64,000 nt of DNA. Origin: Candidatus Latescibacterota bacterium (GTDB taxonomy: Bacteria > Latescibacterota > CBDEFO01). Shown one piece after another: positions 1,196 through 59,766 of this stretch; position 1 is the stretch's first letter, and every line of letters begins with the position of its first letter. A program made the position numbers and the translations under genes. The stretch spans positions 2,912,001-2,976,000 of the forward strand of contig OZ252149.1 in the NCBI GenBank assembly GCA_965248755.1, in the 5' to 3' direction. The notes beneath the pieces are model-generated. The model was not told the origin of the DNA. It did not search any database and saw only the letters and a program-made list of their open reading frames with translations.

Positions 1196-2081
1196 TTAAG
1201 CAACTTGGGGTAGCAGATAAAATTGTTTTCTCCACTCTTCCGGGGTCTTGTATCCCAGGGATGAATGAAGCCTGTTCTTGTTGTAATTATCGATCCACTG
1301 AGATATGATCTTCTCAGCTTGTTCAAAGGACTTGAAATTGTGAAGCCACACACACTCCTGCTTGAGGGTCCTGAAAAAACGTTCTATGACCCCGTTCCAA
1401 TCGGCCTTTCCGCTCGGAATATATTCTTGACGAATGTCCCAATATTCGGTACTTGCCAAATAGGTCCGAGACAAAAAGATGGAGCCGTTGTCAGAGCGCA
1501 AAGTGAGACCCTGGGGGACAGCCTCCTTAGGAAGTGTATCGAGAGATCACGGCCCGATCCAGGGCATCTGTGGCCTCCAGTGCCCTCCCTTTTCGACTAA
1601 AACGATACCCGGGGAACCTCCCGACTCCCGTTGTCCACCACCGCAATAAGAGGACACCAACCATCTTCCCCACAATAGATCTTGGTCAAGTCAGCCGACC
1701 AGAGACTGTCAGGACGATCCATCACAGAACGCTTCTGGGCAACCTGTGGCCCCTTTCTCCCGGGGTCCCCGATTGATTCTATCGGGGATTCCACAGCTTA
1801 CACTGCCACCCCTTAAGCTTCATTATCCTATGAACCTTCTTGATGTTGACATATGCCCCTTCCTTGAAACGAAGATGCGCCCAAACCCGCCTGTGACCAA
1901 ATGCCTCTTCTTGGTCGAGTATCCCTCGAATACGAAAAGCAAGCTGTTCATCTATCACAGACTCTTCGACAGAAGAACTGACACCTCTATACCTAAGCCT
2001 ACACAGAGTCGAACGATGCAAACCCAAAGCCAAAGCTACCACCTTCCGGGAATAGCCTCGACCCAAAAACCGCTCACTCAA
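1196..2081 (-). pseudogene. IS3 OrfB DDE transposase, broken by three frame lesions
   Basis: WSADLT...VVD, RSDNGS and IERFFRTLKQE motifs are spread over different frames. Confidence 0.88.
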
Positions 2082-2407
2082 GGCAACCGCTTCGTTTTTT
2101 TTAGACGGGCTACCTCCTCGAGTATCTCCAACTGGAGGGTTAAGTGCCCTACCTTACGCTCCAACCGGCTGACCTCCCGCTCCTTCGCATCCTTGCGACC
2201 ACGCCGAGACTTCAGACTCTCCTGGCCTCCTTCCAAGAAACTATCACGCCAAGCATACGCCTGTGACTGGCTAATTCCATTCTTCCAACACACCTCTGAT
2301 ACATTCGCTCCTTTCAAAACAGCCAACACCACCTCTACCTTACGGGTCGCCGTCCAGCGCTTACCATCTTTCACTTCGGGGCTTGACACCTTGACCTCCT
2401 TTCTCAA
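2078..2407 (-). CDS. IS3 OrfA (HTH transposase subunit)
   Basis: HTH_Tnp_1-like sequence with a coiled-coil tail; A8 slippery run near the 3' end. Confidence 0.88.
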   Translation of the reverse strand: MRKEVKVSSPEVKDGKRWTATRKVEVVLAVLKGANVSEVCWKNGISQSQAYAWRDSFLEGGQESLKSRRGRKDAKEREVSRLERKVGHLTLQLEILEEVARLKKTKRLP

Positions 2408-2574
2408 ACCCCAATTTGCAAAATATTTGTCGCCCTGTCAAGGGGAGCGGTATGCTCTTTAACAATTCAAGCAAGCTCAAATTTGAGATGAGGTGATCCG
2501 GAAAATCTTTAGCCATTCTGTCATATCCGTTGCCAATAAATCACAAACACATTTCTTTGAGGAGGGATGATCGA

Positions 2575-2967
2575 ATGATTCTAAGAAAACGCTTATTCCG
2601 ACTATTACGGGCAATATTGGTTCTTGTTGTTACAGTAATCATGGTGAACGATGGCGCAAAAGATATATATGGACATGCTCCAGATCCTTGCGCTGAAGAC
2701 GAATGTAATGTTTATTGGGACGGCTGTGCTAGCCCTACTCATAGTTGTGACTCTGTGAAGACTTATTTTTGTTGGCCTGGTCTCATATGCAGCAAGCCGG
2801 TATGCGACGATACTGGCTCTGGAGGTGACAAATGCGACCATCCTACTTTTGGAACCGGCGATGGGTGTAATACGCACATTACTCACATATGTGAAGGTTG
2901 GCATGATAGTTGTTGGGCACCCTATGAATGTTCATGTGCTGTTGGATTTTGTCATTGTGTAGAATGA
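2575..2967 (+). CDS. Secreted cysteine/histidine-rich small protein (130 aa)
   Basis: GGAGGG RBS then ATG 2575; basic plus hydrophobic N-terminus; 15 Cys and 7 His in the ~97-aa mature part. Confidence 0.7.
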   Translation: MILRKRLFRLLRAILVLVVTVIMVNDGAKDIYGHAPDPCAEDECNVYWDGCASPTHSCDSVKTYFCWPGLICSKPVCDDTGSGGDKCDHPTFGTGDGCNTHITHICEGWHDSCWAPYECSCAVGFCHCVE

Positions 2968-3023
2968 TCAGGATAGCATACCGCTCCCCTTGACAGGGCG
3001 ACAAATATTTTGCAAATTGGGGT

Positions 3024-3353
3024 TTGAGAAAGGAGGTCAAGGTGTCAAGCCCCGAAGTGAAAGATGGTAAGCGCTGGACGGCGACCCGTAAGGTAGAGGT
3101 GGTGTTGGCTGTTTTGAAAGGAGCGAATGTATCAGAGGTGTGTTGGAAGAATGGAATTAGCCAGTCACAGGCGTATGCTTGGCGTGATAGTTTCTTGGAA
3201 GGAGGCCAGGAGAGTCTGAAGTCTCGGCGTGGTCGCAAGGATGCGAAGGAGCGGGAGGTCAGCCGGTTGGAGCGTAAGGTAGGGCACTTAACCCTCCAGT
3301 TGGAGATACTCGAGGAGGTAGCCCGTCTAAAAAAAACGAAGCGGTTGCCTTGA
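3024..3353 (+). CDS. IS3 OrfA
   Basis: Identical to copy 1 OrfA; A8 run at 3329-3336 is a candidate -1 frameshift site; true start may be GTG 3042. Confidence 0.88.
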   Translation: MRKEVKVSSPEVKDGKRWTATRKVEVVLAVLKGANVSEVCWKNGISQSQAYAWRDSFLEGGQESLKSRRGRKDAKEREVSRLERKVGHLTLQLEILEEVARLKKTKRLP

Positions 3354-4235
3354 GTGAGCGGTTTTTGGGTCGAGGCTATTCCCGGAAGGTGGTAGCTTTG
3401 GCTTTGGGTTTGCATCGTTCGACTCTGTGTAGGCTTAGGTATAGAGGTGTCAGTTCTTCTGTCGAAGAGTCTGTGATAGATGAACAGCTTGCTTTTCGTA
3501 TTCGAGGGATACTCGACCAAGAAGAGGCATTTGGTCACAGGCGGGTTTGGGCGCATCTTCGTTTCAAGGAAGGGGCATATGTCAACATCAAGAAGGTTCA
3601 TAGGATAATGAAGCTTAAGGGGTGGCAGTGTAAGCTGTGGAATCCCCGATAGAATCAATCGGGGACCCCGGGAGAAAGGGGCCACAGGTTGCCCAGAAGC
3701 GTTCTGTGATGGATCGTCCTGACAGTCTCTGGTCGGCTGACTTGACCAAGATCTATTGTGGGGAAGATGGTTGGTGTCCTCTTATTGCGGTGGTGGACAA
3801 CGGGAGTCGGGAGGTTCCCCGGGTATCGTTTTAGTCGAAAAGGGAGGGCACTGGAGGCCACAGATGCCCTGGATCGGGCCGTGATCTCTCGATACACTTC
3901 CTAAGGAGGCTGTCCCCCAGGGTCTCACTTTGCGCTCTGACAACGGCTCCATCTTTTTGTCTCGGACCTATTTGGCAAGTACCGAATATTGGGACATTCG
4001 TCAAGAATATATTCCGAGCGGAAAGGCCGATTGGAACGGGGTCATAGAACGTTTTTTCAGGACCCTCAAGCAGGAGTGTGTGTGGCTTCACAATTTCAAG
4101 TCCTTTGAACAAGCTGAGAAGATCATATCTCAGTGGATCGATAATTACAACAAGAACAGGCTTCATTCATCCCTGGGATACAAGACCCCGGAAGAGTGGA
4201 GAAAACAATTTTATCTGCTACCCCAAGTTGCTTAA
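3350..4235 (+). pseudogene. IS3 OrfB, broken
   Basis: Stop and frameshift at the palindrome 3644-3664; further frame lesions near 3817 and 3902. Confidence 0.88.
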
Positions 4236-4308
4236 TTGATGTCGCTTTTCTGGGGGGCAGTACAATAGTGTTATTATAAGTTATACCCAATTAAGGAGGA
4301 GACTCAAA

Positions 4309-12333: not shown

Positions 12334-12578
12334 GGGTGTGTCAGATTTTTTGTGTAAATGGGTACCTTCCCATGTCAGCTTTTCCTACATATTCAATCTC
12401 CCTTCGAAATGGATCGAAAATTGGTGAATGGCGAATCCCCGATTGCTTCTATCGGGGACAAGGAATCCCTCGCCATATGAACTATGCAAAGCTGGACCTC
12501 TGCCTGGGGGAATACAGATTCAATAGCCTCCGGAAGCCCCTGTAGACCATCCACGCAAGCTATCAACACATCATTCAA
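12334..12578 (-). mobile_element. Internally deleted IS256 remnant carrying a 21-bp palindrome
   Basis: DVLIACVDGLQGLPEAIESVFPQAEVQLCIVH; terminus TTTACACAAAAAATCTGACACACCC. Confidence 0.8.
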
Positions 12579-16243: not shown

Positions 16244-18627
16244 TTATAGGCCGATAGAACGTGCTCTCTTGCTGAATTCCAGAAGTAGCTTACTTAATGC
16301 AGAATGTTCAAATATCGTAATATTTATTAGAGCAGAAATCGCTGCCTTGGCATCCAGGATCTCTGACAGGAGTTCTGGAAGTTTTTCTTCTCCTTCCTCC
16401 CAGATTTCCTTTATTTCTTCATAAACTTCCCGTCTTATATCAGCAGAAGAATGTTCATCTAACTTGGCGCTTAAATAGTTCACAATTCCTTGAAACTCAT
16501 CTCTATCCAACCAGATACCATGACAATCCGGGCACCAATCGATAATGATAGTAGAATCCCCAAAATTAGTAGATACTAATTTGATTCCCTCGCATTCTGG
16601 ACATACACGGTTTGATGGAATTGCATTGGCCTTCTCGATAGCCTCAACTTCGTCATCCATCCAGCTTAACGTGCGCCATGAGCCTTTCTGAGCTTTGTCC
16701 TTCAGTTTTCGTAGTTCATCCCTATCCAGGAAAATGTCTTTGCAATAGGGGCAGCCATCTATCTCCATGCCATAGACTGTGTATAGATTAAGAGTAGTTT
16801 TACATACTGGACATATTTTTGTAGTCTGTGCTGTGAATTTAGCGTTTTCTATCGGAGGAACTGTACTGCCCCCCAGAAAAGCGACATCAATTAAGCAACT
16901 TGGGGTAGCAGATAAAATTGTTTTCTCCACTCTTCCGGGGTCTTGTATCCCAGAGATGAATGAAGCCAGTTCTTGTTGTAATTATCGATCCACTGAGATA
17001 TGATCTTCTCAGCTTGTTCAAAGGACTTGAAATTGTGAAGCCACACACACTCCTGCTTGAGGGTCCTGAAAAAACGTTCTATGACCCCGTTCCAATCGGC
17101 CTTTCCGCTCGGAATATATTCTTGACGAATGTCCCAATATTCGGTACTTGCCAAATAGGTCCGAGACAAAAAGATGGAGCCGTTGTCAGAGCGCAAAGTG
17201 AGACCCTGGGGGACAGCCTCCTTAGGAAGTGTATCGAGAGATCACGGCCCGATCCAGGGCATCTGTGGCCTCCAGTGCCCTCCCTTTTCGACTAAAACGA
17301 TACCCGGGGAACCTCCCGACTCCCGTTGTCCACCACCGCAATAAGAGGACACCAACCATCTTCCCCACAATAGATCTTGGTCAAGTCAGCCGACCAGAGA
17401 CTGTCAGGACGATCCATCACAGAACGCTTCTGGGCAACCTGTGGCCCCTTTCTCCCGGGGTCCCCGATTGATTCTATCGGGGATTCCACAGCTTACACTG
17501 CCACCCCTTAAGCTTCATTATCCTATGAACCTTCTTGATGTTGACATATGCCCCTTCCTTGAAACGAAGATGCGCCCAAACCCGCCTGTGACCAAATGCC
17601 TCTTCTTGGTCGAGTATCCCTCGAATACGAAAAGCAAGCTGTTCATCTATCACAGACTCTTCGACAGAAGAACTGACACCTCTATACCTAAGCCTACACA
17701 GAGTCGAACGATGCAAACCCAAAGCCAAAGCTACCACCTTCCGGGAATAGCCTCGACCCAAAAACCGCCCACTCAAGGCAACCGCTTCGTTTTTTTTAGA
17801 CGGGCTACCTCCTCGAGTATCTCCAACTGGAGGGTTAAGTGCCCTACCTTACGCTCCAACCGGCTGACCTCCCGCTCCTTCGCATCCTTGCGACCACGCC
17901 GAGACTTCAGACTCTCCTGGCCTCCTTCCAAGAAACTATCACGCCAAGCATACGCCTGTGACTGGCTAATTCCATTCTTCCAACACACCTCTGATACATT
18001 CGCTCCTTTCAAAACAGCCAACACCACCTCTACCTTACGGGTCGCCGTCCAGCGCTTACCATCTTTCACTTCGGGGCTTGACACCTTGACCTCCTTTCTC
18101 AAACCCCAATTTGCAAAATATTTGTCGCCCTGTCAAGGGGAGCGGTATGGAACATCTACTTCAAAATCAGTTTGGCTGCTCTTTCTTCTTACTCGTTTAT
18201 ACCAATAAGGCAGGTGTACATTGTTGACGAATTCCGAGAATCCTCTACCTGTAAGAGGCATTATGTTTGTCAGTTCTCTATTTGCTAAATCGAGTTCACC
18301 GCCATCTAACCAGAAACCGCCGCAGTTTCTGCAGCGATCCAACACTATATCGCTATGATCCAGAAAGAACACCTTATCTAAAATGGTCTCCTCACATCTT
18401 GGACATTTTACTGTAACTTCGGAGATGCCTTCAGCGCTATCTTTGGCATCTCTGGAGGAGTATTCAATACTTCCAGTTACATGGAAGGCCATCTTGTCTA
18501 ACTCACCAGCATCCAGCCAAAGACTCCCACAGGCGTCGCAAATATCGTAAGATATCTGTTTAAGCTGCACAAACTTAGTCTGTACAAGATTGTTGATCAT
18601 TTCCTCATTACAATTTAAACACTTCAT
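16244..18627 (-). pseudogene. Four-fold zf-TFIIB zinc-ribbon protein (~363 aa) split by IS3 copy 3
   Basis: Four CxxC...CxxC-x-x-(W/F)LD-x-x-E units; removing the IS and one TSD fuses the halves in frame (EVDVP|PIENAK). Confidence 0.85.
16862..18149 (-). mobile_element. IS3-family insertion sequence, copy 3 (1288 bp), TSD GAAC
   Basis: A few SNPs relative to copies 1 and 2; GAAC on both sides; OrfA 17773-18102, broken OrfB 16891-17776. Confidence 0.93.
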
Positions 18628-23798: not shown

Positions 23799-23891
23799 TA
23801 TACTCTGATATTCAAAAATAGATTGACCCCTGCTCGCCGATTGAATCTATCAGGGATAGATCAAAATTATACTCATAGAACTGGAGGTTAG

Positions 23892-24224: not shown

Positions 24225-24354
24225 TCCCCGCTCCCCGATTGAGTCTATCGGGGAGCAATCGGGGATCAATTCGCTAAGATGGGAAAATTGTGGAACTGAT
24301 ACGGTGTTTAGAAGTCTATTTTAGGGTGTTTACTGGTGAAAACCGAGGGAGATT

Positions 24355-34525: not shown

Positions 34526-36037
34526 ATGAAGTTCAGATATACTATAATCCTTGCGGTTGTCTTTGCAGGTCTTCTTGCATTTGCGCTCCGCGATAAACGA
34601 CAGCGCCAGGAGAAAGAAGAGACAAAAAAGGAGGCGGAGAAGTTACTTATATTTGACAGAGATCAGGTGAGACGACTGACTCTGATCCGGGAGGATGAGA
34701 CCATTGTGGCAGAAAAGGAGGAGCCGGGAGAATGGAAGATAGTTTCCCCTGTCCAGACAGACGCTGACAACGACGCTGTTGAAAGGCTCATAGACAACAT
34801 TGGAAACACCCGAACGGATAGAGTCCTCGTAAAGGAGGTGGATGTAGAGGACGCAGAAGAGACACTCGAAGGATACGGTCTGGATAAACCCACTGTCGTT
34901 CTGCACATGGAGCTGGAAGGTGATGCGACGAGTACGTACGGTCAACTGGATACGGTTTACTATGGGGGAGAAAGCCCTACCAGTTCCTTTGCATACGTAA
35001 GGAAAGGGCAGAGTCTGGATATACTTACTATCCCGCTTTGGAGGAGGGATAATGTGGACAAGCAGCTTTTCGATCTGAGAGATCAAAGGGTGCTGGCGTT
35101 TCAAAGCGATGAAGTGAGACAATTAGATATCAAAAGGGCTGGTATTCTAATGTCGGTCTCCAAGTCGGGAAGTATGTGGAACATAGATAAACCCCTCCAG
35201 GACAGAGGTGACGTAGACGAGATAGATGAGATCATACGAAAGCTGAATCAGGAGAAGGTCAAAGAGTTTGTCAGCGAATCGTCTGACACGGGTGAGCTTG
35301 AGGGATACGGGCTTACAGATCCGCATATAGAGGTCACACTCTGGCTGGGGGCGGACAGAGCTAAGAAGATGCTATATATTGGAGCCGAAAAGCGTAGTGA
35401 TCTCTATGCCCAGGATAAAGAGGGCGCCGATCGCTACGCCAAGGACGAATCGAAGGAAGCTGTCTTTCTGATATCTTCCGAATTGAAGGAGGCCCTGGAG
35501 GTAGACCCCTTTGCGCTTCGATACAAAAAGTTAGCTGATTTCGAAAGCGACGATATAGACAAGGTGGAGTTCGCATACAAAGAAGAGGCGCCCACTCCGT
35601 CTAACGCGATCTTATGTGTGAAGGACACGTCTGGTAACTGGAGCGTGGCATTCTCATCTCCGATAGATTCAATCGGGAAAAAGAAAGATGCCACAGGCTG
35701 GAAGATTCGCGGTGCTATGAGTGATATAGCTGATCTCAAAGCTGAGAAGTTCCTCCCAGAGGAGTCTTCCGACACGGAGTCGCCCTCCCCGATTGCTTCT
35801 ATCGGGGATCAATCGGGGGGCGACCTGTCTCAGTACGGTCTTGAGCGCCCGCGCATCACCGTCAGATTGTGGAAGGGAGAGAAGCTGGTGGTCCAAGTCT
35901 TAGTCGGCAAGGGGAAGGATGAGTTCGTCTACGCCAAGACATCCCAAAGCGATAGGGTCTACCTTGTTAGAAAGAGTATAGTGGAGGATCTGACCTTCAC
36001 TATAGACGACATAGCAGTATCAGAAGGAGAGGCTTAA
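34526..36037 (+). CDS. DUF4340 domain protein (three internal repeats)
   Basis: Repeated W...YGLxxP units; this family usually follows gldG. Confidence 0.85.
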   Translation: MKFRYTIILAVVFAGLLAFALRDKRQRQEKEETKKEAEKLLIFDRDQVRRLTLIREDETIVAEKEEPGEWKIVSPVQTDADNDAVERLIDNIGNTRTDRVLVKEVDVEDAEETLEGYGLDKPTVVLHMELEGDATSTYGQLDTVYYGGESPTSSFAYVRKGQSLDILTIPLWRRDNVDKQLFDLRDQRVLAFQSDEVRQLDIKRAGILMSVSKSGSMWNIDKPLQDRGDVDEIDEIIRKLNQEKVKEFVSESSDTGELEGYGLTDPHIEVTLWLGADRAKKMLYIGAEKRSDLYAQDKEGADRYAKDESKEAVFLISSELKEALEVDPFALRYKKLADFESDDIDKVEFAYKEEAPTPSNAILCVKDTSGNWSVAFSSPIDSIGKKKDATGWKIRGAMSDIADLKAEKFLPEESSDTESPSPIASIGDQSGGDLSQYGLERPRITVRLWKGEKLVVQVLVGKGKDEFVYAKTSQSDRVYLVRKSIVEDLTFTIDDIAVSEGEA

Positions 36038-38062: not shown

Positions 38063-38282
38063 GTGCGGTAGACAGTAGTCAGGGCAAGCAAGTAGACAGC
38101 AAACAGTAGACAGTAGACAGGGGCACCACCGCCCTTCCCACCAGATTGCTTTGCAGTCCCCGATATAAGCAATCGGGGACTGCCCCTACAGATAAATTTA
38201 GGGATCAGACAGCGTAGTTTGTCGCCTCCACTGCCTGACAACGCACGCGGTGGCAGCGGGACAACGGACCCGACGAAAGCAC

Positions 38283-39302: not shown

Positions 39303-41269
39303 TCTATCGGGCGACTCGTCAGGTATACAACGTAAGATTAAGTGGAAAGGCAAGCGGAGCGTTGCCCTGTCTCCCCCGATTGCGTCTTTCGGGGGCAGGC
39401 CCTCGATTGAACCCCCGATTGTATCCATCTGGGACTACTATCTACTGTCTGCTGATACCTGTCTGCTGTATACTGATTTTGTCTCTGTCGTTTCCTGCCT
39501 ACACTGCTGACGTTAGCTTTCAGGCCTACGTGGACAAGAACAAGATCGGAACTACCGACCGGCTTAAGCTGATCGTATCGGTCTCGGGATCTAAGCTGGG
39601 CAGCCTCCCCAATCCGGTTCTCCCCAGTCTGAACGATTTTGCGGTGTCCGTCCCAAGACGAAGCTCATCTTCCAGCTATCAGTTCTCCACAGGCGGTAGT
39701 GCGGTATCCGCACAGAAATTAGAGTTTACGTATCATCTGCGCCCTCGGAGGAGCGGGAACCTGGTTATAGGTCCCGTGAAAATGGAGGTTAAGGGCGTGG
39801 AGTATGAGACTCGTCCTATTCAGATCCAAGTAGTCGAGGGAACCACTGAAACTGTGAGGACGCCGAGAGGTAGTCAAATACCGATAGAGGGAAATCTCTA
39901 TATGGAGGTGACTGCAGATAGACAGAGGGCATACGTGGGCGAGCAGATAACGCTGATCTACGACCTTTACAACAGATTCAGTATTTCAGACTTAAGATAC
40001 AACGCCGCCCCTGCGTATCAGGACTTCTGGGTTGAGGATATATTCGATTTTAGAACAAAGAGTCACCTGGAGAGCAGACGAGAGGCGATAGATAACCGAC
40101 TCTTTGAAGTAGCTCTTCTGAAAAAGGTGGCCGTCTTTCCGAAGGCTCCGGGTACTTTCAGGATAGAGCCTCTTAAGATAGAATGCGACATCCAGGTGAG
40201 AGGTGGGAGTAGGAGCATCTTTGACTTTGGTGGATTCTCCACAAGGACGAAGACCTTTTTAGTTCAGTCCGATCCCATCAGTGTGGAGGTTCTGCCGCTG
40301 CCACAAAGGGGAAAGCCGGGGGATTTTGACGTGCCTGTCGGCGACTTTTCCATCTCGGCTTCGACCGATCTGAAGACCGCTACAAAGGGGGATGCGATAT
40401 CCTTAAGGGTGGTCATATCGGGTGCGGGAAATGTAACTTCCATAAGGGAACTGAAGCCTCCTCTCTTGGACTCGTTCAAGGTCTACGATCCTAAAATAGA
40501 GGCAGAATCGAAGGCCGTAGACGGTATCATTCAGGGCACAAAGACATTCGAATATGTTCTGATACCTGAGACTGACGGCGATCTTCTGATAGCTCCCTTT
40601 GAGTTTTCTTACTTCGATCCTGCAAAAGAAAGGTATATAACGACTCAGACTTCCCCTCTGTCCCTCAGGATATCTCCTGTGTTAGAGACTGAGAAGGTTT
40701 CGGCGGGATATGGCCTTTCCCGCGAGGAAATAAAGTTAGTAGGGGAGGATATACGCTATATCAAGCCCGATTATAGAGGGGCAGAACGCCAGCTTGAGGA
40801 TCAGGGCCGACCCTTATACAAGGATATGCGTTTCTTATTCCTTCAGATAGTTCCCGTCATAACCCTGATCGGGGCCTGGACATACAAAAGGCACCTTGTG
40901 AAGGTTCGTACCGATGCTGCCTACGTCCGCAGGAAGAGGGCCAAAACTCAGGCCGCCAGGAGGCTCAAAAGGGCAAGGCAACTTATGAAAGATGAGTCAT
41001 CAGCCGAGTTCTACGCTGAGATCAACAGCGCTCTTTCGGAGTTTTTGGCGGATAAGCTCAATATCCCGGCTGCAGGGCTCACCAAAGATTCTATGGAGGA
41101 GCATCTACTGCAAAGAGGCGTAGACCAGGCATTGGTAGATAACCTGAAAGATACTCTAATCCGGTGTGACTTTGCGAGGTTTGCCCCCTCCCAATCTATG
41201 TCCGATGATTTGGAAACGCTCCTGAATAAGACCGAAAAGTCCATTGATCGTTTGGAAAAGCGAATTTAA
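39299..41269 (+). CDS. batD: BatD family protein
   Basis: Tandem BatD Ig-like domains, TM, CDFARFAP tail; repeat-rich N-terminus. Confidence 0.85.
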   Translation: MIYRATRQVYNVRLSGKASGALPCLPRLRLSGAGPRLNPRLYPSGTTIYCLLIPVCCILILSLSFPAYTADVSFQAYVDKNKIGTTDRLKLIVSVSGSKLGSLPNPVLPSLNDFAVSVPRRSSSSSYQFSTGGSAVSAQKLEFTYHLRPRRSGNLVIGPVKMEVKGVEYETRPIQIQVVEGTTETVRTPRGSQIPIEGNLYMEVTADRQRAYVGEQITLIYDLYNRFSISDLRYNAAPAYQDFWVEDIFDFRTKSHLESRREAIDNRLFEVALLKKVAVFPKAPGTFRIEPLKIECDIQVRGGSRSIFDFGGFSTRTKTFLVQSDPISVEVLPLPQRGKPGDFDVPVGDFSISASTDLKTATKGDAISLRVVISGAGNVTSIRELKPPLLDSFKVYDPKIEAESKAVDGIIQGTKTFEYVLIPETDGDLLIAPFEFSYFDPAKERYITTQTSPLSLRISPVLETEKVSAGYGLSREEIKLVGEDIRYIKPDYRGAERQLEDQGRPLYKDMRFLFLQIVPVITLIGAWTYKRHLVKVRTDAAYVRRKRAKTQAARRLKRARQLMKDESSAEFYAEINSALSEFLADKLNIPAAGLTKDSMEEHLLQRGVDQALVDNLKDTLIRCDFARFAPSQSMSDDLETLLNKTEKSIDRLEKRI

Positions 41270-43646: not shown

Positions 43647-43993
43647 GTCTTATTCTCCTAACTTAACAGAACACTGCAAGATAAAAGGACAATATAATAA
43701 ATATAACGTAACTGGCCTATTTGTCAACAGATTTACATTTAGCTGTCAGGGTAATGCAGTTCTCAGTCTGGAGGTGAGGCAGTACCAATTGAAGACAGAG
43801 TGGTTGAGGCCATCTCGTGGCTAGTTGCCTCTGTTCTCCCTTTACTTCTCATCGGTTCGCCCGAACGTAGAACGGTTCATCTGTAGGGCAGACCTGTGTG
43901 TTTTCTCCTGGTCGAGTGGTCCCCGATTGAATCTGTCGGGGATCGCCCCTACATTTTGTCTATCCTATGATCGAATCTATTGCGGATTGCTAA

Positions 43994-44222: not shown

Positions 44223-44273
44223 CTAAAGGGTCTTTGCTATCGGCCATGGCATAAGTTTCGCTTGTTTGCTTAC

Positions 44274-46926: not shown

Positions 46927-46974
46927 TGTTTTTCCTCTTCTTTGTCTCCGATTGAATCTATCGGGGATCGGGAA

Positions 46975-48594: not shown

Positions 48595-48980
48595 GGTTTG
48601 TCCTGTCAGTGTTCGTAGAAAAGATAGTCGTCAAAATGCAGCAATTATAGTGTAGGGGTTGGGTTAGCCAACCCTTGGGGCGAGTGATCCCCGATAGATT
48701 CAATCGGGGACGGCCCTACGAATACAGAACTACATATGTGCCTGACCCCTTCAGGGCTATTAGACGCCGATTTCTGACTACTTTGAGTCACAATGGAGCA
48801 CAGAAGAGGACTTCTCCTTTAGTTGGAGCAGGTTGACTTAATGCGGCCCCAGGTGACGGACTCAACAACATCTACATGGTCAATAGTTCCATCAAAAGGA
48901 AGCAGGCCGTAGTCAACGATGCGTCTTTAGTGAAGTTGAGATCTTAGTCACCACTGTTCGTATAATAGCCGTCGTAGCCC

Positions 48981-51239
48981 TCAACTTCGGGATCGGGATC
49001 GTCTTGACTTGAAAAAGTAGAGCGAAAGCAAGGACAAAGCCACAATCACCAAGATGACCAGAACAAACTTGCCCTTGTTAAAGTAAGCAAGCCCAAGGTG
49101 AACGTGAGCCAAAGCATAATCGGGATCAATTCTTAGAGCCTCCTTGTATTCGGCTATAGACTCGTCAAGTATACCCTTCTCAGCGTAAGCAATCCCAAGG
49201 TGAACGTGAGCCCAAGCATAATCGGGATCAATTCTTAGAGCCTCCTTGTATTCGGCTATAGACTCGTCAAGTATACCCTTCTCAGCGTAAGCAATCCCAA
49301 GGTGAACGTGAGCCCAAGCATAATCGGGATTGATCCTTATGGCCTCTTTGTATTCAGCTATGGCCTCGTCAAGCATGCCCTTATCAGCGTAAGCAATCCC
49401 AAGGTGAACGTGAGCCTTGGCATTGTCGGGGTTGATTCTCAGAGCCTCTTTGTTTTCGGCTATAGCCTCGTCAAGCATACCCTTCTCAGCGTAAGCAGTC
49501 CCAAGGTAAACGTGAGCCCAAGCATAATCGGGATCAATTCTTAGAGCCTCTTTGAATTTGGCTATAGCCTCGTCAAGCATACCCTTCTCAGCGTAAGCAA
49601 TCCCAAGGTTGTTGTGAGCCAGAGCATAATCAGGATCAATTCTTAGGGCCTCTTTGTATTCGGCTATAGCCTCGTCAAGCATACCCTTATTAGCGTAAGC
49701 AAGCCCAAGGTTGTTGTGAGCCAGAGCATAATCAGGATCAATTCTTAGGGCCTCTTTGTATTCAGCTATAGCCTCGTCAGATAGACCCTTTTTACCGTAA
49801 GCAATCCCAAGGTTGTTGTGAGCCCAAGAAAAGTCGGGGTCGATCCTTATGGCCTTTTTGTATTCAGCTATAGCCTCGTCAAGCATACCCTTGTTAAAGT
49901 AAGCATACCCAAGGTTGATGAGAGCCTTGGTATCGTCTGGATTGATTCTCAGAGCCTTTTTGTATTCAGCTATAGCCTCGTCAAGCATGCCCTGCTTACC
50001 ATAAGCCCAACCAAGGTTGTTGTGAGCCATGGCATTGTCGGGGTTGATCCTTATGGCCTCTTTGTATTCAGCTATGGCCTCGTCAAGCATGCCCTTATCA
50101 GCGTAATCAATCCCAAGGTGAACGTGAGCCTGGGCATCATCGGGATTGATTCGCAGAGCCTCTTTGTATTCGGCTATAGCCTCGTCAAGCATACCCTTCT
50201 CAGCGTAAGCAATCCCAAGGCGAACGTGAGCCTGGGCATCATCGGGATTGATTCGCAGAGCCTCTTTGTATTCGGCTATAGCCTCGTCAAGCATGGCCTT
50301 TTCAGCGTAGGAAAGCCCAAGGTTGTTGTGAGCCATGGCATTGTCGGGGTCGATCCTTATGGCCTTTTTGTATTCGGCCATAGCCTCGTCAAGCATGCCC
50401 TTATTAGCGTAAGCAATCCCAAGGTGAACGTGAACGTGAGCATCATCGGGATTGATCCTAAAAGCCTCTTTGTATTCAGCTATTTCCTCATCAAGCATAC
50501 CCTTATTAGCGTAAGCATCTCCAAGGTGAACGTGAGCCCAAGCATAATCGGGATTGATCCTAAGAGCCTCTTTGTATTCGGCTATTGCCTCATCAAGCAT
50601 GCCCTTTTCACTATAAGCCAAACCAAGGTTACCGTGAGCCCAAGCATAATCGGGATTGATCCTAAGAGCCTCTTTGTATTCGGCTATTGCCTCATCAAGC
50701 ATGCCCTTGTTAAAGTAAGGACGCCCAAGGTGAACGTGAACGTGAGCATCATCGGGATTGATCCTAAGAGCCTCTTTGTATTCGGCTATTGCCTCATCAA
50801 GCATGCCCTTCTTACCATAAGCCCAACCAAGACCATAGTGCCCCCAGAAATAATCTGGGTTAATCTCTATAGCTCTTTGAAACTCCTGCATTTTTTGATC
50901 GACATCCTCTAAAGCTCTACCATAGAGATAATGAAACACTTCGCTGTCGGGGTTCTCCTCGACCTTCTTCCTATACTCCGCTATTACCTCTTCCCCTTTG
51001 TCTCTATCCCTCAGGATGTCCATATACTCCCTGTGGGCTTCTGTATATTCAGGAGAAATCTCGATGGCCTTCTTGAACGCCTCCAACGCCTCGTCTAAAT
51101 CCTTCTCCTTTTTTTGCTCCATCCCACGCTCGAAATGTCCCTTTGCCCGCTCATCAATCCCTTCCTGGGATGTGGCTATCCCCACAAGGATTAAGGATAG
51201 CATCCCGACTATGGTAAGAATGTTGAATGAGCTTTTCAT
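48981..51239 (-). CDS. Secreted, C-terminally anchored TPR protein with 17 near-identical 34-aa repeats
   Basis: Signal peptide; (GMLDEAIAEYKEALRINPD...)x17; C-terminal TM followed by a basic tail. Confidence 0.9.
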   Translation of the reverse strand: MKSSFNILTIVGMLSLILVGIATSQEGIDERAKGHFERGMEQKKEKDLDEALEAFKKAIEISPEYTEAHREYMDILRDRDKGEEVIAEYRKKVEENPDSEVFHYLYGRALEDVDQKMQEFQRAIEINPDYFWGHYGLGWAYGKKGMLDEAIAEYKEALRINPDDAHVHVHLGRPYFNKGMLDEAIAEYKEALRINPDYAWAHGNLGLAYSEKGMLDEAIAEYKEALRINPDYAWAHVHLGDAYANKGMLDEEIAEYKEAFRINPDDAHVHVHLGIAYANKGMLDEAMAEYKKAIRIDPDNAMAHNNLGLSYAEKAMLDEAIAEYKEALRINPDDAQAHVRLGIAYAEKGMLDEAIAEYKEALRINPDDAQAHVHLGIDYADKGMLDEAIAEYKEAIRINPDNAMAHNNLGWAYGKQGMLDEAIAEYKKALRINPDDTKALINLGYAYFNKGMLDEAIAEYKKAIRIDPDFSWAHNNLGIAYGKKGLSDEAIAEYKEALRIDPDYALAHNNLGLAYANKGMLDEAIAEYKEALRIDPDYALAHNNLGIAYAEKGMLDEAIAKFKEALRIDPDYAWAHVYLGTAYAEKGMLDEAIAENKEALRINPDNAKAHVHLGIAYADKGMLDEAIAEYKEAIRINPDYAWAHVHLGIAYAEKGILDESIAEYKEALRIDPDYAWAHVHLGIAYAEKGILDESIAEYKEALRIDPDYALAHVHLGLAYFNKGKFVLVILVIVALSLLSLYFFKSRRSRSRS

Positions 51240-51453
51240 AGCTTCAACCTGCCGAAAGGATAGCACCGCCTGACTTATGAAGTAAAGCTATAAATTCACA
51301 GTTTTAAAAGACTAAGTGCAGTGTCACAAGCTTGCCTATCACAGCAGGATGTTGGGAGCAAACCCGAAATCTGGAGGCCCTTGGGGCGAGTGATCCCCGA
51401 CCCCCAATTGAATCTATTGGGGGCTCAATCGGGGACGCCCCTACGAATACACA

Positions 51454-52681: not shown

Positions 52682-53881
52682 ATGAGACGGATTCTGTTCC
52701 ATGTGCTGGGCATCTTGATTGTGGGGGTGGTAGTAACAGCGTGCGGCGGTAGTAAAAAGCTGGTCGAGGTTCTAGAAGGGTCGAAGGAAAAGAAAAGCTA
52801 TGCTGAGGCTGATGCTCACTACAATATAGGCTTCAACTTGTATAACGAAAGGGACTTGGAAGGAGCCATCATAGAATATCGTGAAGCCCTCCGGTTGGAT
52901 CCCGACTTTGCCCTTGCTCACAACGATCTCGGCAACGCCCTAGCTAAAAAAGGGGACTTGGAAGGGGCAATCCGGGAATACCATGAGGCAATCAGAATTA
53001 ACCCCCATTATTCTACTCCTCACAACAACATCGGCAATGTGTTAATTAAAAAGGGGGAATTGGAAGGGGCAATTAGAAAATTTCATGAGGCCATAAGGAT
53101 CGACCCCCACAGTGCTGGCGCTCACAACAACTTGGGCAACGCCCTGAAATCTAAGGGGGATTTGGAAGGGGCAATTAGAGAATATCATGAGGCTATCAGG
53201 AACGATTCCTACTATGCTACTCCCCATTACGGTCTCGGCAACACCCTGTATAGCAAAGGGGACTTGGAAGGAGCAATCAGAGAATTTCGTGAGGCCATAA
53301 GAATCGACCCCGATTATGGTAAGGCTCACTACAACCTCGGCATCGCCCTGCGTAAGAAAGGAGACCTGGAAGGAGCAACGAGAGAATTTCGTGAGACTAT
53401 AAGAATCAACCCCCATAATGCTAATGCTCACTATAACGTCGGAATCGCCCTGTATAAGAAAGGGGACTTGGAAGGAGCCATCAGAGAATATCGTGAGGTC
53501 ATAAGCATTTACCCCAATTATGTCAATGCGTATATCAACCTCGGCGTCGCTTTACGCGACGAAGGGGACTTGGAAGGAGCTATCAGAGAATATCGTGAAG
53601 CCATAAGCATCAACCCCAATGCCACGCTTGCACATTACAACCTTGGCAACGCCCTGAAATCCAGAGGGGATTTGGATGGAGCTATCAGAGAATATCGCAA
53701 AGCATTAAGTATCAATCCCAACTATGCCGCTGCGCACAATAACCTCGGCTACGCCTTGGATGCCAACGGGGATCAGGCAAGTGCTATCCGGGAGTGGGGT
53801 GTCTTCATTCAGCTGAGCAAGGATGAACATGCAAAAGAAGAGGCACGGGAAATGATCCGCAAACTCGGAGGCACACCGTAA
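52682..53881 (+). CDS. TPR-repeat lipoprotein (~10 repeats)
   Basis: Lipobox VTAC; repeated GDLEGAIREY.EAI.I.P. Confidence 0.88.
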   Translation: MRRILFHVLGILIVGVVVTACGGSKKLVEVLEGSKEKKSYAEADAHYNIGFNLYNERDLEGAIIEYREALRLDPDFALAHNDLGNALAKKGDLEGAIREYHEAIRINPHYSTPHNNIGNVLIKKGELEGAIRKFHEAIRIDPHSAGAHNNLGNALKSKGDLEGAIREYHEAIRNDSYYATPHYGLGNTLYSKGDLEGAIREFREAIRIDPDYGKAHYNLGIALRKKGDLEGATREFRETIRINPHNANAHYNVGIALYKKGDLEGAIREYREVISIYPNYVNAYINLGVALRDEGDLEGAIREYREAISINPNATLAHYNLGNALKSRGDLDGAIREYRKALSINPNYAAAHNNLGYALDANGDQASAIREWGVFIQLSKDEHAKEEAREMIRKLGGTP

Positions 53882-54680: not shown

Positions 54681-54955
54681 ACAGTAGACAGGGCACCGCC
54701 TCCCATCCCGCCGGATTGCTTCGGGGTGAAGTCCCTCTTGAGCAAGAGGGCTGAATCTCCTGGCAATGACTACGAGTCGGGACAAGCAGGGCTATGTGCC
54801 CCTGAACTATCATTCTGAGCGATAGGCAAGCAATCTCGCAGTGATTAGTCAGGATGTAGGGGCGAGGCCTGCCCCCGAATGATTCTATCGGGGGTCCACT
54901 CGCCAAAAGGGGCCTGGGTAATACAGCCCCCCATCATCTATAAGGAGGTAGCCGA

Positions 54956-55726
54956 TTGGCGACAGGTATTGCCACAATAATATCATTTAGCTTTCTTGTC
55001 CTGGCGCTGCTGATCCTGCTTCCTCTGCGGATTCGCCTGGACGCCTCGAGCCTGGATGAGGAGAAAAATGTCTTCATATACTTGGGCGCATGGTATGGCC
55101 TTTCAGGTTTAGGAATTTCACTTTTGGGTGACGGCGTCAGGTTCTACATTATGCTCTTAGGGAGGAGATTGTACCAGTTCCGCCCCAGGAAAAAGAGAAG
55201 GGTGAAGGAACCTAAAGATGTCGAACCTGAAAAGGAGCGCCCTAAAGAGGAGCGTCCTAAAAAGGAGCGCCCTAAAAAGGAGCGTCCTAAAAAGGAGCGT
55301 CCTAAAAAGGAGCGTCCTGGGCCTGTTGAGAGATTGAAAACAATGTACGGATATTTACGCATATTCAAGGCTCCTGTCCTGCGCTTCCTCAGATCATCTT
55401 TGAGGAGTTTGAACTTAACGAGGATAGACTGCAACCTGGAGTATGGAGCGGGTGACCCTGCTTTCACAGGCAAGGCGTTCGGCATCTACCACTCCATTTG
55501 CCCGCTTTTGGGAGAGAAAGTAAATGTGAAGGTTATGCCTAATTTCACTGATGCCGTACTCCGCGGGGATATATCGGTCATTCTGGACCTGAAACTCTAT
55601 GTGCTCATAATCGCCTCTCTGAGACTTGGGATATCTGTTGGATATGCATGGCTCAAGGATTGGCTGGCGGATCGACTTCCCCGTAAAATGTGGAGACACA
55701 AGGATTTATCTCTGTCGGAAGGCTAA
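54956..55726 (+). CDS. DUF2953 domain protein
   Basis: GAGDPAFTG motif; upstream of a YtfJ-family gene; (KERPK)x6 insert. Confidence 0.75.
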   Translation: MATGIATIISFSFLVLALLILLPLRIRLDASSLDEEKNVFIYLGAWYGLSGLGISLLGDGVRFYIMLLGRRLYQFRPRKKRRVKEPKDVEPEKERPKEERPKKERPKKERPKKERPKKERPGPVERLKTMYGYLRIFKAPVLRFLRSSLRSLNLTRIDCNLEYGAGDPAFTGKAFGIYHSICPLLGEKVNVKVMPNFTDAVLRGDISVILDLKLYVLIIASLRLGISVGYAWLKDWLADRLPRKMWRHKDLSLSEG

Positions 55727-55788
55727 CTTTATGCCCGATAAAATAATCGGGGCTGCCCGATAAAATCAATCGGGGAAAGGAGAAACCT

Positions 55789-56890: not shown

Positions 56891-56949
56891 GTGAGAACAA
56901 TTTTTAAGGGGTTTTTTTGGACACCTGTTTTTATGGGTGAGCATAGTCG

Positions 56950-57732: not shown

Positions 57733-57867
57733 AGATTAGCTCCTGTTTTTGAAGGTACACTATATCTTGCGTTGTAGCTACTATGCATACTACATATAGA
57801 ATTTAATAAGAACGGGATCGAAAAGCAAGGGAGAAATGGTTATTGTTCTGAAAATGCATATCTTACC

Positions 57868-57965
57868 AATAAAAAAATGCTCACTTTAGACAAAGTGGGC
57901 ACTCTACAATGGTTTGGCACTGAGAACTTTTCATTGACATCCACTATTTTCTTTTATATCTTTCT
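57868..57965 (+). repeat. ~100-bp hairpin plus promoter module, copy B
   Basis: TTGACA-17 bp-TATCTT; GCTCACTT...AAGTGGGC stem. Confidence 0.7.
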
Positions 57966-58529
57966 GTATTGATTAACGAACAGTTTCAGCTTACCGATAC
58001 AAATTTATTTAATAAGAGGAGGGTTAGCCATGTTTCTAAATACCCTTAACTTTAAAAGGATACAACAAGAAAAGAATGGGTGTAAGTCCTTCCCGAAAGG
58101 TATACGAGCTCCCTTTTCTACAAAGCTAAGTAAGTAGAGAGTAGTCAGTAGACACAGCACCGCCTGCCATCCCTATGTGCTGTCTACTATTTTGGATCTC
58201 TATAATTTGTCCGAACTATTTTGACCCGATACTTAAATGACTTGGTGGATCGCGACCAAGAAGAGGTACCTACTTCGTAGGCAAGAGGATATTCGTTATT
58301 GGGCCAAGCGAAAGAACGAAGATCCACTTCTTATCATCATAACGGGGGCAGCGCGTATTCATGGATTGCCAGAAGAGTTGGAGTTATGAGGGATAGAAAT
58401 CCAGTTCCAAAATGAAATTACACCCCTTTGGCTGAGGATGCCAGCTGGGACTTCAAAAGCTCGACAGCGGGCCTGAAGGAAATCCTCGAACAAGCCCTGG
58501 CCGCGGCCTAGACAAGAAAGGAGAACCCC

Positions 58530-59591
58530 ATGTCCTCAATTGAAATTCTCGGTACCGGCTGGGTGGACAGGCGCGATTCGGCCTTCCCCCAGACCGTGCA
58601 ACTGCCCAGCGGCGACCTCCTCTGTTCCTTTAATGTGGGCGGCGGTCCCTATGTCAATGGCGGCACGGACTGGGCCCTCTCCACAGACGGCGGCCAGACC
58701 TGGACCCTCGAAGGCACCATTGCCCCGCCCACGACCGATCCTCCCACCACCTATGCCCTCAAGCTGAGCCTTTCGGCTGACGGCCAGACCGTTTTCGCGT
58801 ACGGGGCGCATTCCTATGCCCGGGACGAGGAGAAATTCGGCGAAGGCCGCAACGAGCCGGTGCTATGCCGCTCCGCGGACAGAGGCCGCACCTGGTCGGA
58901 TCCCCAGGTGGTCCCCATGCCCGGCGATTGCCCACTGGAAATTTCCCACGGGGTACTGCCGCTCGAATCCGGCCGCCTCCTGGCGCCGGCCGCCACTCTC
59001 CCTGCCCAGGACCGCCTGGGCGAGCAGGTCCTGGTGGCCATCTCCGACGACGGCGGACTGACCTGGCCGCAGCACGCTGTGGTGTTCGAGGACCCCGACA
59101 AAAAATTCGGCTACTTTGAGCATAAGCTGGCCGTAATCTCCCCGGACCTGCTCATGGCCGTGTGCTGGACCGTGACCTTGGGCGATGTGGTGGACCAGCC
59201 GGACAGCTTTGTGCTCTCGCGCGACAATGGATCCACGTGGGGGGCGGCCCGATCCACCGGCATCCAGGGGCAGACCATGACCCCGATCCCCCTGGGCAGC
59301 GACCGGCTCCTGGTGCTTTACAACCGGCGCTACGGCGACCAGGGCATTATCATGAACCTGGTGACCTTTGCGGAAGAGTCCTGGACCCTTCACTACGAAG
59401 GCCTGATGTACGACGCCAGGGCAAAGCGCGAACGGCCGGACGACCTGGAAACAGGGGTGGAGGAATTGTACTCCTTTATGTTCGGCTTCCCCACGGCGAT
59501 CAAGCTGCAGGACGGGACCTATCTGGCGACCCACTGGTGCAAGGAAGGAGCCACCTTCGGCATCCGCTGGACCAAACTGCGGATCCAATAG
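58530..59591 (+). CDS. Sialidase-like BNR/Asp-box propeller protein
   Basis: STDGGQTW, SADRGRTW, SDDGGLTW, SRDNGSTW. Confidence 0.85.
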   Translation: MSSIEILGTGWVDRRDSAFPQTVQLPSGDLLCSFNVGGGPYVNGGTDWALSTDGGQTWTLEGTIAPPTTDPPTTYALKLSLSADGQTVFAYGAHSYARDEEKFGEGRNEPVLCRSADRGRTWSDPQVVPMPGDCPLEISHGVLPLESGRLLAPAATLPAQDRLGEQVLVAISDDGGLTWPQHAVVFEDPDKKFGYFEHKLAVISPDLLMAVCWTVTLGDVVDQPDSFVLSRDNGSTWGAARSTGIQGQTMTPIPLGSDRLLVLYNRRYGDQGIIMNLVTFAEESWTLHYEGLMYDARAKRERPDDLETGVEELYSFMFGFPTAIKLQDGTYLATHWCKEGATFGIRWTKLRIQ

Positions 59592-59597
59592 TCTAGT

Positions 59598-59766
59598 GAG
59601 ATTGCTTCGCCCACTTCGTGGCTTGCTGCCACTCCGCCTCGCAATGACGTTGCTTGGCTTCGTCCTTCGGTCATTGCCAGGGGCATTTGCCTCGAGTGCC
59701 CGATAGACTCAATCGGGGACCGCTTTGCTCCTCGCAATGACTCCACCAAGTTTATGCTTAATCGGG
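59598..59766 (+). mobile_element. Partial IS1380-type MITE with an embedded 21-bp palindrome
   Basis: 59721-59766 matches the reverse complement of 43994-44040; followed by TTAG; other end not found. Confidence 0.7.

What the first reader, a model, noticed from the sequence alone, without database searches (positions are those of the whole stretch)
1767..59718. A 21-bp asymmetric palindrome behaves like a miniature mobile element (about one copy per 3 kb)
Seen: CCCCGAT-TGNNTCT-ATCGGGG or its reverse complement occurs about 20 times (1767, 3644, 12437, 17462, 23835, 24233, 35658, 35787, 38158, 39373, 39412, 42373, 43921, 46946, 48689, 51401, 54872, 55734, 55756, 59699; three of these are carried by the IS3 copies). 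The 7-bp arms and the asymmetric loop are largely conserved, while the central NN varies freely (AT, CT, AA, AG, CG, TA). It lies inside IS3 and IS256 transposases, in an intact host ORF, in REP-like hairpins, in a MITE and next to ribosome-binding sites. Stems often extend into site-specific flanks (GCAGT..ACTGC at 38153, ATTGAT..ATCAAT at 24220, GTCGC..GCGAC at 35779). It is seven codons long and can read P-I-x-S-I-G on either strand. Established: REPs spread by Y1/HUH RAYT transposases, and Rickettsia RPEs insert in frame into genes, but those units are longer or carry a GTAG/CGTC tag, which this lacks. Inference: an ultra-short insertion element driven by an enzyme encoded elsewhere.
Basis: partly seen in the sequence, partly recalled or inferred. 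Interest (0 to 1): 0.88.

Follow-up and report, generated by a model that had tools for sequence, protein, structure and literature searches.

The report
Tiny mobile hairpin, two junction types
A 23-base DNA hairpin with no gene of its own has inserted itself hundreds of times into this bacterium's genome, usually deleting 3-4 bases at the landing site and sometimes doubling them, which points to an insertion enzyme that has not been identified.

Summary
The motif is real and mobile. The window has 18 sites and the genome 560 (3 in a control). Empty alleles occur in paralogues, in a sister genome and in contigs of related strains.

The unit is 23 nt, Y-CCCCGATTGAATCTATCGGGG-R, not 21. Net gains between orthologues cluster at +18 to +21 and +26/+27, with none at +22 to +25. 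Most insertions replace 3-4 target bases, often Y-N-N-R. A minority duplicate them (4-nt direct repeats at 20 of 520 sites, 3.2 expected). A small subfamily carries an oriented CCTG tail and inserts 27 nt cleanly. Copies favour existing hairpin repeats and nest in themselves.

The same sequence occurs in another phylum. A near-identical core forms the stem-loop of an Ssn-type repeat, once flanking an Ssn-like nuclease gene. No Y1, IS110, Cas1 or Ssn gene was found in this genome, so the enzyme is unknown.

Closest precedent: cyanobacterial small dispersed repeats (SDR). The scan noted this element before on other windows of this genome (e1-1524658, e1-356784), and similar hairpins elsewhere. 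The lose-or-double junction pattern, donor-borne ends and Ssn-repeat link are added here.

The parts
1766..1788 (+). 23-nt hairpin unit (T..A ends) inside IS3 copy 1163-2456; puts a stop and a +20 shift into orfB
   Evidence: 15 filled copies (longest frame 124 aa) vs 54 empty copies (53 with 308-316 aa)
3643..3665 (-). same unit in the second IS3 copy (2975-4268)
17461..17483 (+). same unit in the third IS3 copy (16862-18149)
12436..12458 (+). intergenic unit, loop variant TGCTTCT, flanked by dispersed repeats
   Evidence: no two-sided orthologue in the G001 DNA held
23834..23856 (+). older unit, shared with G001
24225..24265 (+). nested pair: inner unit 24232-24254 inside an outer copy; G001 has only the outer copy
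   Evidence: folds as one long hairpin, z -6.6
35657..35679 (-). unit read through in the DUF4340 gene (34526-36037), shared with G001
35783..35821 (+). nested insertion (unit 35786-35808), net +33 and in frame in the DUF4340 gene; absent from G001 and from contigs of two other runs
38157..38179 (-). unit in a GTAG-type REP arm, shared with G001
39373..39434 (+). two units (39373-39395, 39412-39434); the second site is 12 nt shorter in G001
43920..43942 (+). unit inside a GTAG-type REP
46945..46967 (+). unit upstream of mreB; G001 carries 21 nt more as further nested copies
48688..48710 (-). consensus unit inside a GTAG-type REP; the REP is empty in G001
51394..51435 (+). nested pair in opposite orientations: inner unit 51401-51423 (C..G ends) replaces TAGA of the outer copy
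54868..54894 (+). 27-nt subfamily copy: CCTG tail plus 23-nt hairpin with A at core position 7, inside a GTAG-type REP
   Evidence: (3 empty REPs of this form in the genome)
55734..55776 (-). degenerate tandem pair just upstream of a ribosome-binding site; 43 nt absent from G001
59697..59719 (-). unit in a CGTC-type REP/MITE arm; 28 nt absent from G001

Best explanation
A gene-less 23-nt hairpin (8-bp core arms counting the end pair, 7-nt loop; end pair T..A or C..G) spreads copy-from-copy as a non-autonomous mobile element. SHOWN: it is inserted DNA; the empty allele is ancestral where polarity can be read; both orientations occur at one site; the end pair travels with the core; junctions sit at purine-pyrimidine steps after Y-Y-N-R; the target loses 3-4 bases or, less often, doubles them; targets are enriched in existing hairpin repeats. 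INFERRED: a trans-acting nick-and-join enzyme cuts the two strands of a hairpin-forming target 3-4 nt apart and joins the donor at both nicks. One stagger polarity deletes the intervening bases and the other duplicates them. The enzyme gene is not in this genome among the families tested, so it is most likely a small nuclease on a cassette that comes and goes (Ssn-type GIY-YIG or HUH), helped by host repair. A sister subfamily with an oriented CCTG tail inserts 27 nt without changing the target.
For: Copy number: 560 vs 3 in one Markov-4 control genome. Orthologues: 43 of 187 distinct two-sided comparisons with G001 lack or shorten the copy; net gains are +18 x2, +19 x10, +20 x5, +21 x2, +26 x1, +27 x7, +28 x1, +29 x1, and none at +22 to +25. 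Polarity: the empty allele restores the consensus in self-nested cases and the open transposase frame in IS3. Lost tetramers are YNNR in 7 of the ten +19 pairs. 4-nt direct repeats: 20 of 520 sites vs 3.2 expected (maximum 8 in 200 permutations), all 20 YNNR; 3-nt: 44 vs 13.4; 5-nt: 1 vs 0.6; independently 4 of 46 vs 0.7 in metagenome loci. YYNR just outside the unit: 40% of 138 filtered junctions vs 11% nearby. Donor ends: one self-site TCTA receives T..A or C..G although a C..G precursor has 1 copy against 152; loop variant is linked to end pair, p 1e-11. Targets: 56% of 405 intergenic sites have a REP, heptamer or self word within 50 nt vs 12% of random intergenic positions. The core is letter-identical in another phylum. 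A near-identical core forms the hairpin of Ssn-type repeats on both sides of an Ssn-like gene in G267.
Against: No enzyme was found: no Y1 in G000 or G001, no IS110 or Ssn in G000, no Cas1 in either, and the RTs are a retron and a DRT/Abi type. Only 2 orthologous pairs show a clean duplication (TCAA, TAG); of the seven +27 pairs, four are CCTG-tail insertions, one has an inverted tetramer and one is complex. So the duplication class rests mainly on the genome-wide statistic and on paralogues. Five of the ten +19 pairs are self-insertions. In 4 of 5 +20 pairs an extra A-to-G change lies 5' of the unit and is unexplained. 14 of the 43 differing sites are partial or nested and fit no simple rule. 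Insertions lie inside Ssn-type repeats (28 sites 10-14 nt after the tag), not upstream where SsnA cuts (PMC11893778). The Ssn-like gene of G001 and those of the other carrier order are flanked by different hairpins. Enrichment in repeats may partly reflect tolerance of insertions and higher GC (49.5 vs 44.2%).
Confidence: 0.55

Rival explanations
1. No dedicated enzyme. Copies arise when a stalled or broken nascent strand at a hairpin switches template onto another copy of the hairpin and back, so host replication and repair alone write the insertion.
For: No mobiliser was found. Targets are hairpin-rich. Arm-matching changes and inverted flanks occur (6-nt inverted flanks 9 vs 3.1; CAAG/CTTG pair), so template switching does act on these sites at least secondarily.
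Against: Fixed 23-nt unit with a gap at +22 to +25. Empty targets such as TCGA, CTAG and ACG share no homology with the donor. The same letters occur in two phyla while 39 other genomes of the host's phylum have none.
Confidence: 0.2
2. The element is the excised stem-loop of a CGTC/Ssn-related repeat (SRM) and is moved specifically by Ssn nucleases, making it a tag-less member of that known system.
For: GTCA + 23-nt hairpin + TCC repeats with this core occur in 19 of 301 genomes of G041's phylum, with up to 81 matches. They flank an Ssn-like gene on both sides in L317. The unit's ends coincide with the SRM stem ends. G000 has 113 SRM-type repeats of another family, and G001 has an Ssn-like gene.
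Against: G000's copies lack tag and tail; only 16 of 560 have GTCA or TGAC near an end, with no fixed offset. G000 has no Ssn. 0 of 30 SRM loci had an Ssn within about 1.5 kb. Ssn-like genes were found in 5 of 13 carrier genomes of G041's order, none flanked by this core. SsnA needs the tag, cuts upstream of the hairpin and has no shown joining activity (PMC11893778, parts 1-2). The SRM core could itself be an old insertion of this hairpin.
Confidence: 0.13
3. RNA-templated writing: a reverse transcriptase extends a nicked 3' end on a small hairpin RNA, and the position of the second-strand nick gives target loss or duplication, as in target-primed reverse transcription (general knowledge).
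For: Both outcomes at one target class match that geometry. The degenerate YYNR at junctions could reflect wobble priming (inference).
Against: RTs were found only in G000, and they are a retron and a DRT/Abi type; none in G001, G041 or G045. There is no orientation bias to transcription (166 vs 154 between co-directional genes). Several loop and end lineages argue against one master RNA.
Confidence: 0.08
4. A transcription-factor operator, or an uptake/HIP-type sequence that builds up by point mutation and selection.
For: Palindromic, 85% outside called genes, some copies near starts.
Against: Empty orthologues bear no resemblance to the motif. No fixed distance to starts; 60 copies in divergent and 66 in convergent gaps. 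Copies nest in themselves and break a transposase.
Confidence: 0.02

Closest known systems
Small dispersed repeats (SDR) of Nostocaceae (Elhai et al. 2008, Genome Res 18:1484). Paper not held; seen only through citing passages in PMC4390886, PMC5861425 and PMC2884548, and otherwise recalled.
   Same: About 20-27 nt, gene-less, dispersed, mobile-looking, mobiliser unknown (size range and family count recalled); precise insertion into a short target.
   Different: SDR5 inserts between bases 3 and 4 of HIP1 and was not found outside Nostocaceae (passages). This element has a degenerate target, mostly removes 3-4 bases, sometimes duplicates them, and is letter-identical in two phyla. Whether any SDR shows target loss could not be checked.
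CGTC-tagged REPs / NTS / Ssn-related motifs with Ssn GIY-YIG ssDNA nucleases (PMC3733652, part 1 of 8 and passages; PMC11893778, parts 1-2 of 11 and passages)
   Same: GC-rich 8-bp stem; a near-identical core occurs with the CGTCA tag and TCC tail and flanks an Ssn-like gene in one genome.
   Different: No tag or tail here; singlets and nested copies instead of head-to-head dimers; 7-nt loop instead of 4-5; no Ssn gene in the host; it inserts into such repeats.
GTAG REPs / REPINs with RAYT (PMC3116915 passages; PMC3733652)
   Same: Short palindromes, hundreds of copies, mostly extragenic, non-autonomous.
   Different: No GTAG tag; the mobile unit is a single 23-nt hairpin, whereas REP singlets were argued to be immobile remnants; no Y1 gene in G000 or G001.
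Rickettsia palindromic elements and intragenic REPs (table row in PMC3184786; passages in PMC3733652)
   Same: Some copies are read through in genes: 40 in gene cores, PI[DE][SA]IG x20, PRL.LSG x6, PDR[FI]NRG x6.
   Different: RPEs are about 105-146 nt. Here the usual net gain shifts the frame, so coding copies are rare survivors; 84 of 85 lie in the four stop-free frames.
MITEs
   Same: Gene-less, inverted ends, filled and empty sites.
   Different: Far shorter; duplication is the minority outcome; no parent IS with these ends was found.

Membership tests
GTAG REP / REPIN-RAYT | terminal GTAG tag | tested here: not met
   flank frequency table shows no fixed tag; GTAG REPs are targets
GTAG REP / REPIN-RAYT | RAYT (Y1 HUH) gene flanked by the repeat | tested here: not met
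   PF01797: 0 in G000 and G001; none of the 13 Y1 loci of G041/G045 carries the motif
GTAG REP / REPIN-RAYT | inverted doublet is the mobile unit | tested here: not met
   single 23-nt units differ between orthologues
CGTC REP / SRM-Ssn | CGTC(A) tag 5' and TCC/CCA tail 3' of the hairpin | tested here: not met
   absent in G000 copies; present around the same core in 19 of 301 other genomes
CGTC REP / SRM-Ssn | ssn gene flanked by the motif | tested here: inconclusive
   none in G000; G001's is flanked by another hairpin; met for the tagged form in G267
CGTC REP / SRM-Ssn | bound and cut by Ssn as ssDNA | not testable with these tools
   needs a biochemical assay
SDR (very small mobile repeats) | 21-27 nt, dispersed, gene-less (size range recalled) | tested here: met
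   23 and 27 nt units, 560 copies
SDR (very small mobile repeats) | filled and empty orthologous sites | tested here: met
SDR (very small mobile repeats) | precise insertion into a fixed target such as HIP1 (SDR5) | tested here: not met
   degenerate YYNR junction with loss or duplication; only the CCTG subfamily inserts cleanly
SDR (very small mobile repeats) | sequence or fold shared with SDR1-8 | not testable with these tools
   paper and sequences not held
MITE | constant target-site duplication | tested here: not met
   4-nt repeats at 20 of 520 sites; loss is the commoner outcome
MITE | autonomous IS sharing the terminal repeats | tested here: inconclusive
   no enzyme gene among genes flanked on both sides in G000 (judged from N-terminal sequence, not from a family scan); not searched in all carriers
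Transcription-factor operator | conserved site at a fixed promoter position | tested here: not met

The most novel reading that the evidence does not exclude
An undescribed integration chemistry: a visiting nuclease-ligase cuts hairpin-forming DNA on both strands 3' of YYNR and writes in a fixed 23-nt hairpin. The stagger can fall either way, so the same enzyme deletes or duplicates the target tetramer. The donor began as the stem-loop of an Ssn-type repeat and now crosses phyla as naked 23-nt cargo.
Probability: 0.3. Interest if true: 0.85.

Novelty: new variant of a known kind. Interest (0 to 1): 0.63.

Why it matters
How bacterial repeats under 30 nt move is an open question. The papers read here leave CGTC REPs without a dedicated transposase and only hypothesise a role for Ssn cassettes in repeat expansion. 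This element gives hundreds of sites, defined donor ends, a junction motif and two sharply separated junction lengths. Those are exact predictions for an in vitro test of any candidate enzyme. It also changes the host genome: it breaks a transposase, adds peptides to about 40 proteins and builds nested hairpins beside ribosome-binding sites.

Tried and rejected
Enzyme searches that led nowhere: PF01797, PF00078, PF02371, PF01867, PF05635, and PF01541 plus tblastn with an Ssn-like protein in G000. Motif scans of 32,396 six-frame ORFs and a list of genes flanked on both sides also gave nothing. No recurrent enzyme neighbour appeared in 92 metagenome loci, and no shared mobile DNA between G000 and 190 loci of other carriers.

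The tRNA-linked nuclease lead from earlier notes was not supported: 7 of 47 G000 tRNAs have a copy within about 400-500 nt, and G000 has no small GIY-YIG gene. Viral contigs: 0 exact matches. Rfam: only a tRNA in the window. Replication-strand bias: none overall (246 vs 274, p 0.24); the T..A subset gave 97 vs 135 (p 0.015, uncorrected, rough origin), not relied on. No RNA holder was listed among sequencing runs; this is no evidence either way.

Ideas dropped: a 2-nt inversion of the target (AC to GT) beside the unit, because constant donor ends explain more sites; a rule that YNNT targets always gain a C, contradicted by one TCGT pair with net +19; an early 'no duplication' result, which measured from the 21-nt core and missed the 23-nt boundary. 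The IS3 filled/empty comparison is weakened because the empty lineage is about 7% diverged. Enrichment of duplication-type junctions in genes was weak (8 of 40 vs 37 of 436, p 0.04).

Literature searches that found no description of this sequence or junction pattern: and an exact-sequence search. The library lacks most subscription papers. No supplements were read; the motif tables of PMC11893778 may list the tagged form.
Full report
Observation. The pattern gives 29 strand-matches at 18 distinct window sites against 0.01 expected. The genome (G000, 4.54 Mb, one contig) has 194, 182, 114 and 70 sites with 0, 1, 2 and 3 mismatches, 560 in all, against 3 in one Markov-4 control genome. The consensus core is CCCCGATTGAATCTATCGGGG, and the two 'free' positions are A in 92% and 60% of 490 copies. 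Two listed sites (42373, 55734) are decayed, and the window's IS256 gene has no copy. The window holds one copy per 3.6 kb and the genome one per 8.1 kb.

Distribution. With at most 1 mismatch there are 376 matches in G000, 383 in the same-genus G001 and none in 39 other genomes of the phylum. A record title labels the lineage Candidatus Latescibacterota. The motif is in 13 of 13 genomes of one deltaproteobacterial order, in 5 of 121 genomes drawn from that phylum, and in a few copies in Geobacter, Prolixibacteraceae and Casimicrobiaceae assemblies. A metagenome scan gave 92 loci and 48 distinct contexts. Viral contigs gave none.

The unit. The bases just outside the core are complementary in 79% of 490 copies, against 46% expected; they are T..A in 191 and C..G in 116 of 376. 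They belong to the donor. The element's own TCTA is replaced by T..A copies (5 same orientation, 1 opposite) or C..G copies (5 and 9), while a host variant that could supply C..G has 1 copy against 152. Among 493 contexts distinct in their 8-nt flanks, loop variants are tied to end pairs (TGAGTCT 29:0, TGACTCT 2:16, p 1e-11). The unit is therefore 23 nt and exists as several lineages, which suggests copying from many donors (inference). It folds as an 8-bp stem with a 7-nt loop, -7.2 and -7.5 kcal/mol on the two strands, z about -3. One stem pair has 28 compensatory double changes against 4.6 expected; the other six tested show none in excess.

Mobility. I compared G000 with 1.2 Mb of G001 (about a quarter of it) plus short loci. 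139 of 296 G001 copies and 104 of 560 G000 copies had a two-sided orthologue. After removing duplicates, 122 contexts were shared, 43 were absent or shorter in the other genome and 22 had more there. In the window, the inner copy at 24232 and the copies at 35786, 48688, 55734-55776 and 59697 are missing from G001, 46945 has extra nested copies there, and 23834, 35657, 38157 and 39373 are shared. Contigs from two other runs also lack the insertion at 35783-35821. The empty allele is ancestral where this can be read: it restores the consensus in self-nested cases, and 53 of 54 empty IS3 copies have a 308-316 aa frame while all 15 filled copies stop at 124 aa. The empty IS3 lineage is about 7% diverged, so that comparison is indirect.

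Junctions. Net gains among the 43 differing sites were +18 (2), +19 (10), +20 (5), +21 (2), +26 (1), +27 (7), +28 (1) and +29 (1), with none at +22 to +25; the other 14 are partial or nested. In the +19 class the 23-mer replaces four bases, YNNR in 7 of 10 (TCGA x2, TAGA x2, TCTA, TCAG, CTAG; exceptions TTGT, TCGT, GCGT). Five of the ten are self-insertions. In the +20 class three bases go, and 4 of 5 pairs also show G for A just 5' of the unit, which I cannot explain. Genome-wide, 4-nt direct repeats flank 20 of 520 distinct sites (3.2 expected, maximum 8), 3-nt repeats 44 (13.4) and 5-nt repeats 1 (0.6); all 20 tetramers are YNNR. Metagenome loci repeat this (4 of 46 vs 0.7). Only two orthologous pairs show a clean duplication directly (TCAA, TAG); paralogues add a few. 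Whatever the outcome, the four bases outside the unit read YYNR on their own strand in 33% of 612 non-duplicated junctions and 40% of 138 filtered for REP-like words, against 11% nearby. Both orientations occur at one site, though loop flips after insertion could contribute.

Second subfamily. Of 520 contexts, 453 have T at core position 7 and carry the duplication signal (18 vs 2.8). 43 have A there; 18 of these have CCTG on the 5' side and none has a 4-nt repeat. Orthologous pairs show CCTG plus the 23-mer added as 27 nt with the target unchanged. Window 54868-54894 is of this type. Four of the seven +27 pairs are tail insertions, not duplications.

Targets and effects. 85 of 560 copies lie in genes called by my own simple model, which covers 82% of the genome. 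Intergenic copies show no fixed distance to starts and are no commoner in divergent than convergent gaps. 84 of the 85 coding copies use the four stop-free frames. Of 405 distinct intergenic sites, 56% have a CGTC-type, GTAG-type, heptamer or self word within 50 nt, against 12% of random positions, and the flanks alone fold better (-5.8 vs -4.1 kcal/mol). Higher GC and tolerance of insertions may contribute.

Enzyme. None was found. Y1: 0 in G000 and G001. IS110: 0 in G000, 1 in G001. Cas1: 0 in both. RT: two in G000, a retron type and a DRT/Abi type, and none in three other carriers. GIY-YIG: only a 608-aa UvrC-sized frame in G000 (the UvrC label is my reading). The one genealogical clue is that GTCA + 23-nt hairpin + TCC repeats with this core occur in 19 of 301 genomes of the other phylum. 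In G267 they stand on both sides of a small GIY-YIG gene 68% identical to the one in G001, the layout described for Ssn nucleases (PMC11893778, parts 1-2 and passages). Against a direct role: 0 of 30 such repeat loci had an Ssn nearby; the other small GIY-YIG loci examined (8, G001's, and 8) are flanked by other hairpins or none, except a partial match at L318; and insertions fall inside such repeats, not upstream where SsnA cuts.

Mechanism. Shown: a fixed 23-nt donor with its own ends, a YYNR junction bias, and loss or doubling of 3-4 target bases. Inferred: paired nicks 3-4 nt apart on a hairpin-forming target, joined to the donor by an enzyme supplied in trans, with stagger polarity deciding the outcome (0.55). 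Template switching alone (0.2), Ssn as the specific mobiliser (0.13), RNA-templated writing (0.08) and an operator (0.02) are the rivals. I put mobility itself above 0.9.

Comparison and verdict. It works like the cyanobacterial SDRs, which I know only from citing passages and recall, since the paper is not held. It fails the tag tests for GTAG and CGTC REPs and the constant-duplication test for MITEs. Nine library searches, including the exact sequence, found no description; subscription papers and supplements were not seen. Earlier notes of this scan record the same element on other windows of this genome as mobile without duplication and similar hairpins in other genomes. My tests confirm mobility and correct the 'no duplication' point for a minority of sites. 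I rate it a new variant of a known kind, interest 0.63.

Noticed in passing
window 1163-2456, 2975-4268, 16862-18149: An IS3 lineage whose orfB is broken by the hairpin has still spread to 15 near-identical copies (0-3 differences), beside 54 copies of an empty sister lineage; it is probably moved in trans.
   Followed up: partly
L149 (G000 C1:3730098-3733640): A retron-type reverse transcriptase gene runs into a hairpin-carrying IS3 copy at its 3' end; a 301-aa ORF lies upstream.
   Followed up: partly
L150:775-2298: 507-aa RT with best matches to Drt4/Drt5/AbiA models, all below cut-off.
   Followed up: no
G000 genome-wide: A shorter sibling hairpin with core CCCGATTAAATCGGG (17 matches, both orientations pooled) also nests in the element.
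   Followed up: partly
window 43986-44230 and 59697-59756: A 240-nt MITE-like repeat with CGTC-type REP arms; about 40 copies in G000, filled and empty at one arm site, and mostly filled in the G001 DNA held.
   Followed up: partly
L131:1414-1766 (G001): Ssn-like gene between two NTS-like repeats, present in G001 and missing at the orthologous place in G000.
   Followed up: partly
L328 (upstream of the GIY-YIG gene): Another short tag-less hairpin with C..G ends that resembles the stem-loop of the co-resident Ssn-type repeat.
   Followed up: no
window 48960-51000 and 52850-53760: TPR arrays of 102-bp units (17 and 7 near-copies) in two divergent genes.
   Followed up: no
window 55211-55318 and 24117-24213: In-frame tandem repeats of 15 and 27 nt in two ORFs; the 27-nt array appears one unit shorter in G001.
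   Followed up: no
window 62217-64000: A tandem duplication of about 1.2 kb covering xylose-isomerase-like and NUDIX ORFs, 96-98% identical.
   Followed up: no
L312 and L315: Small GIY-YIG genes of a more distant type sit next to tRNA-Asn genes in two genomes.
   Followed up: no
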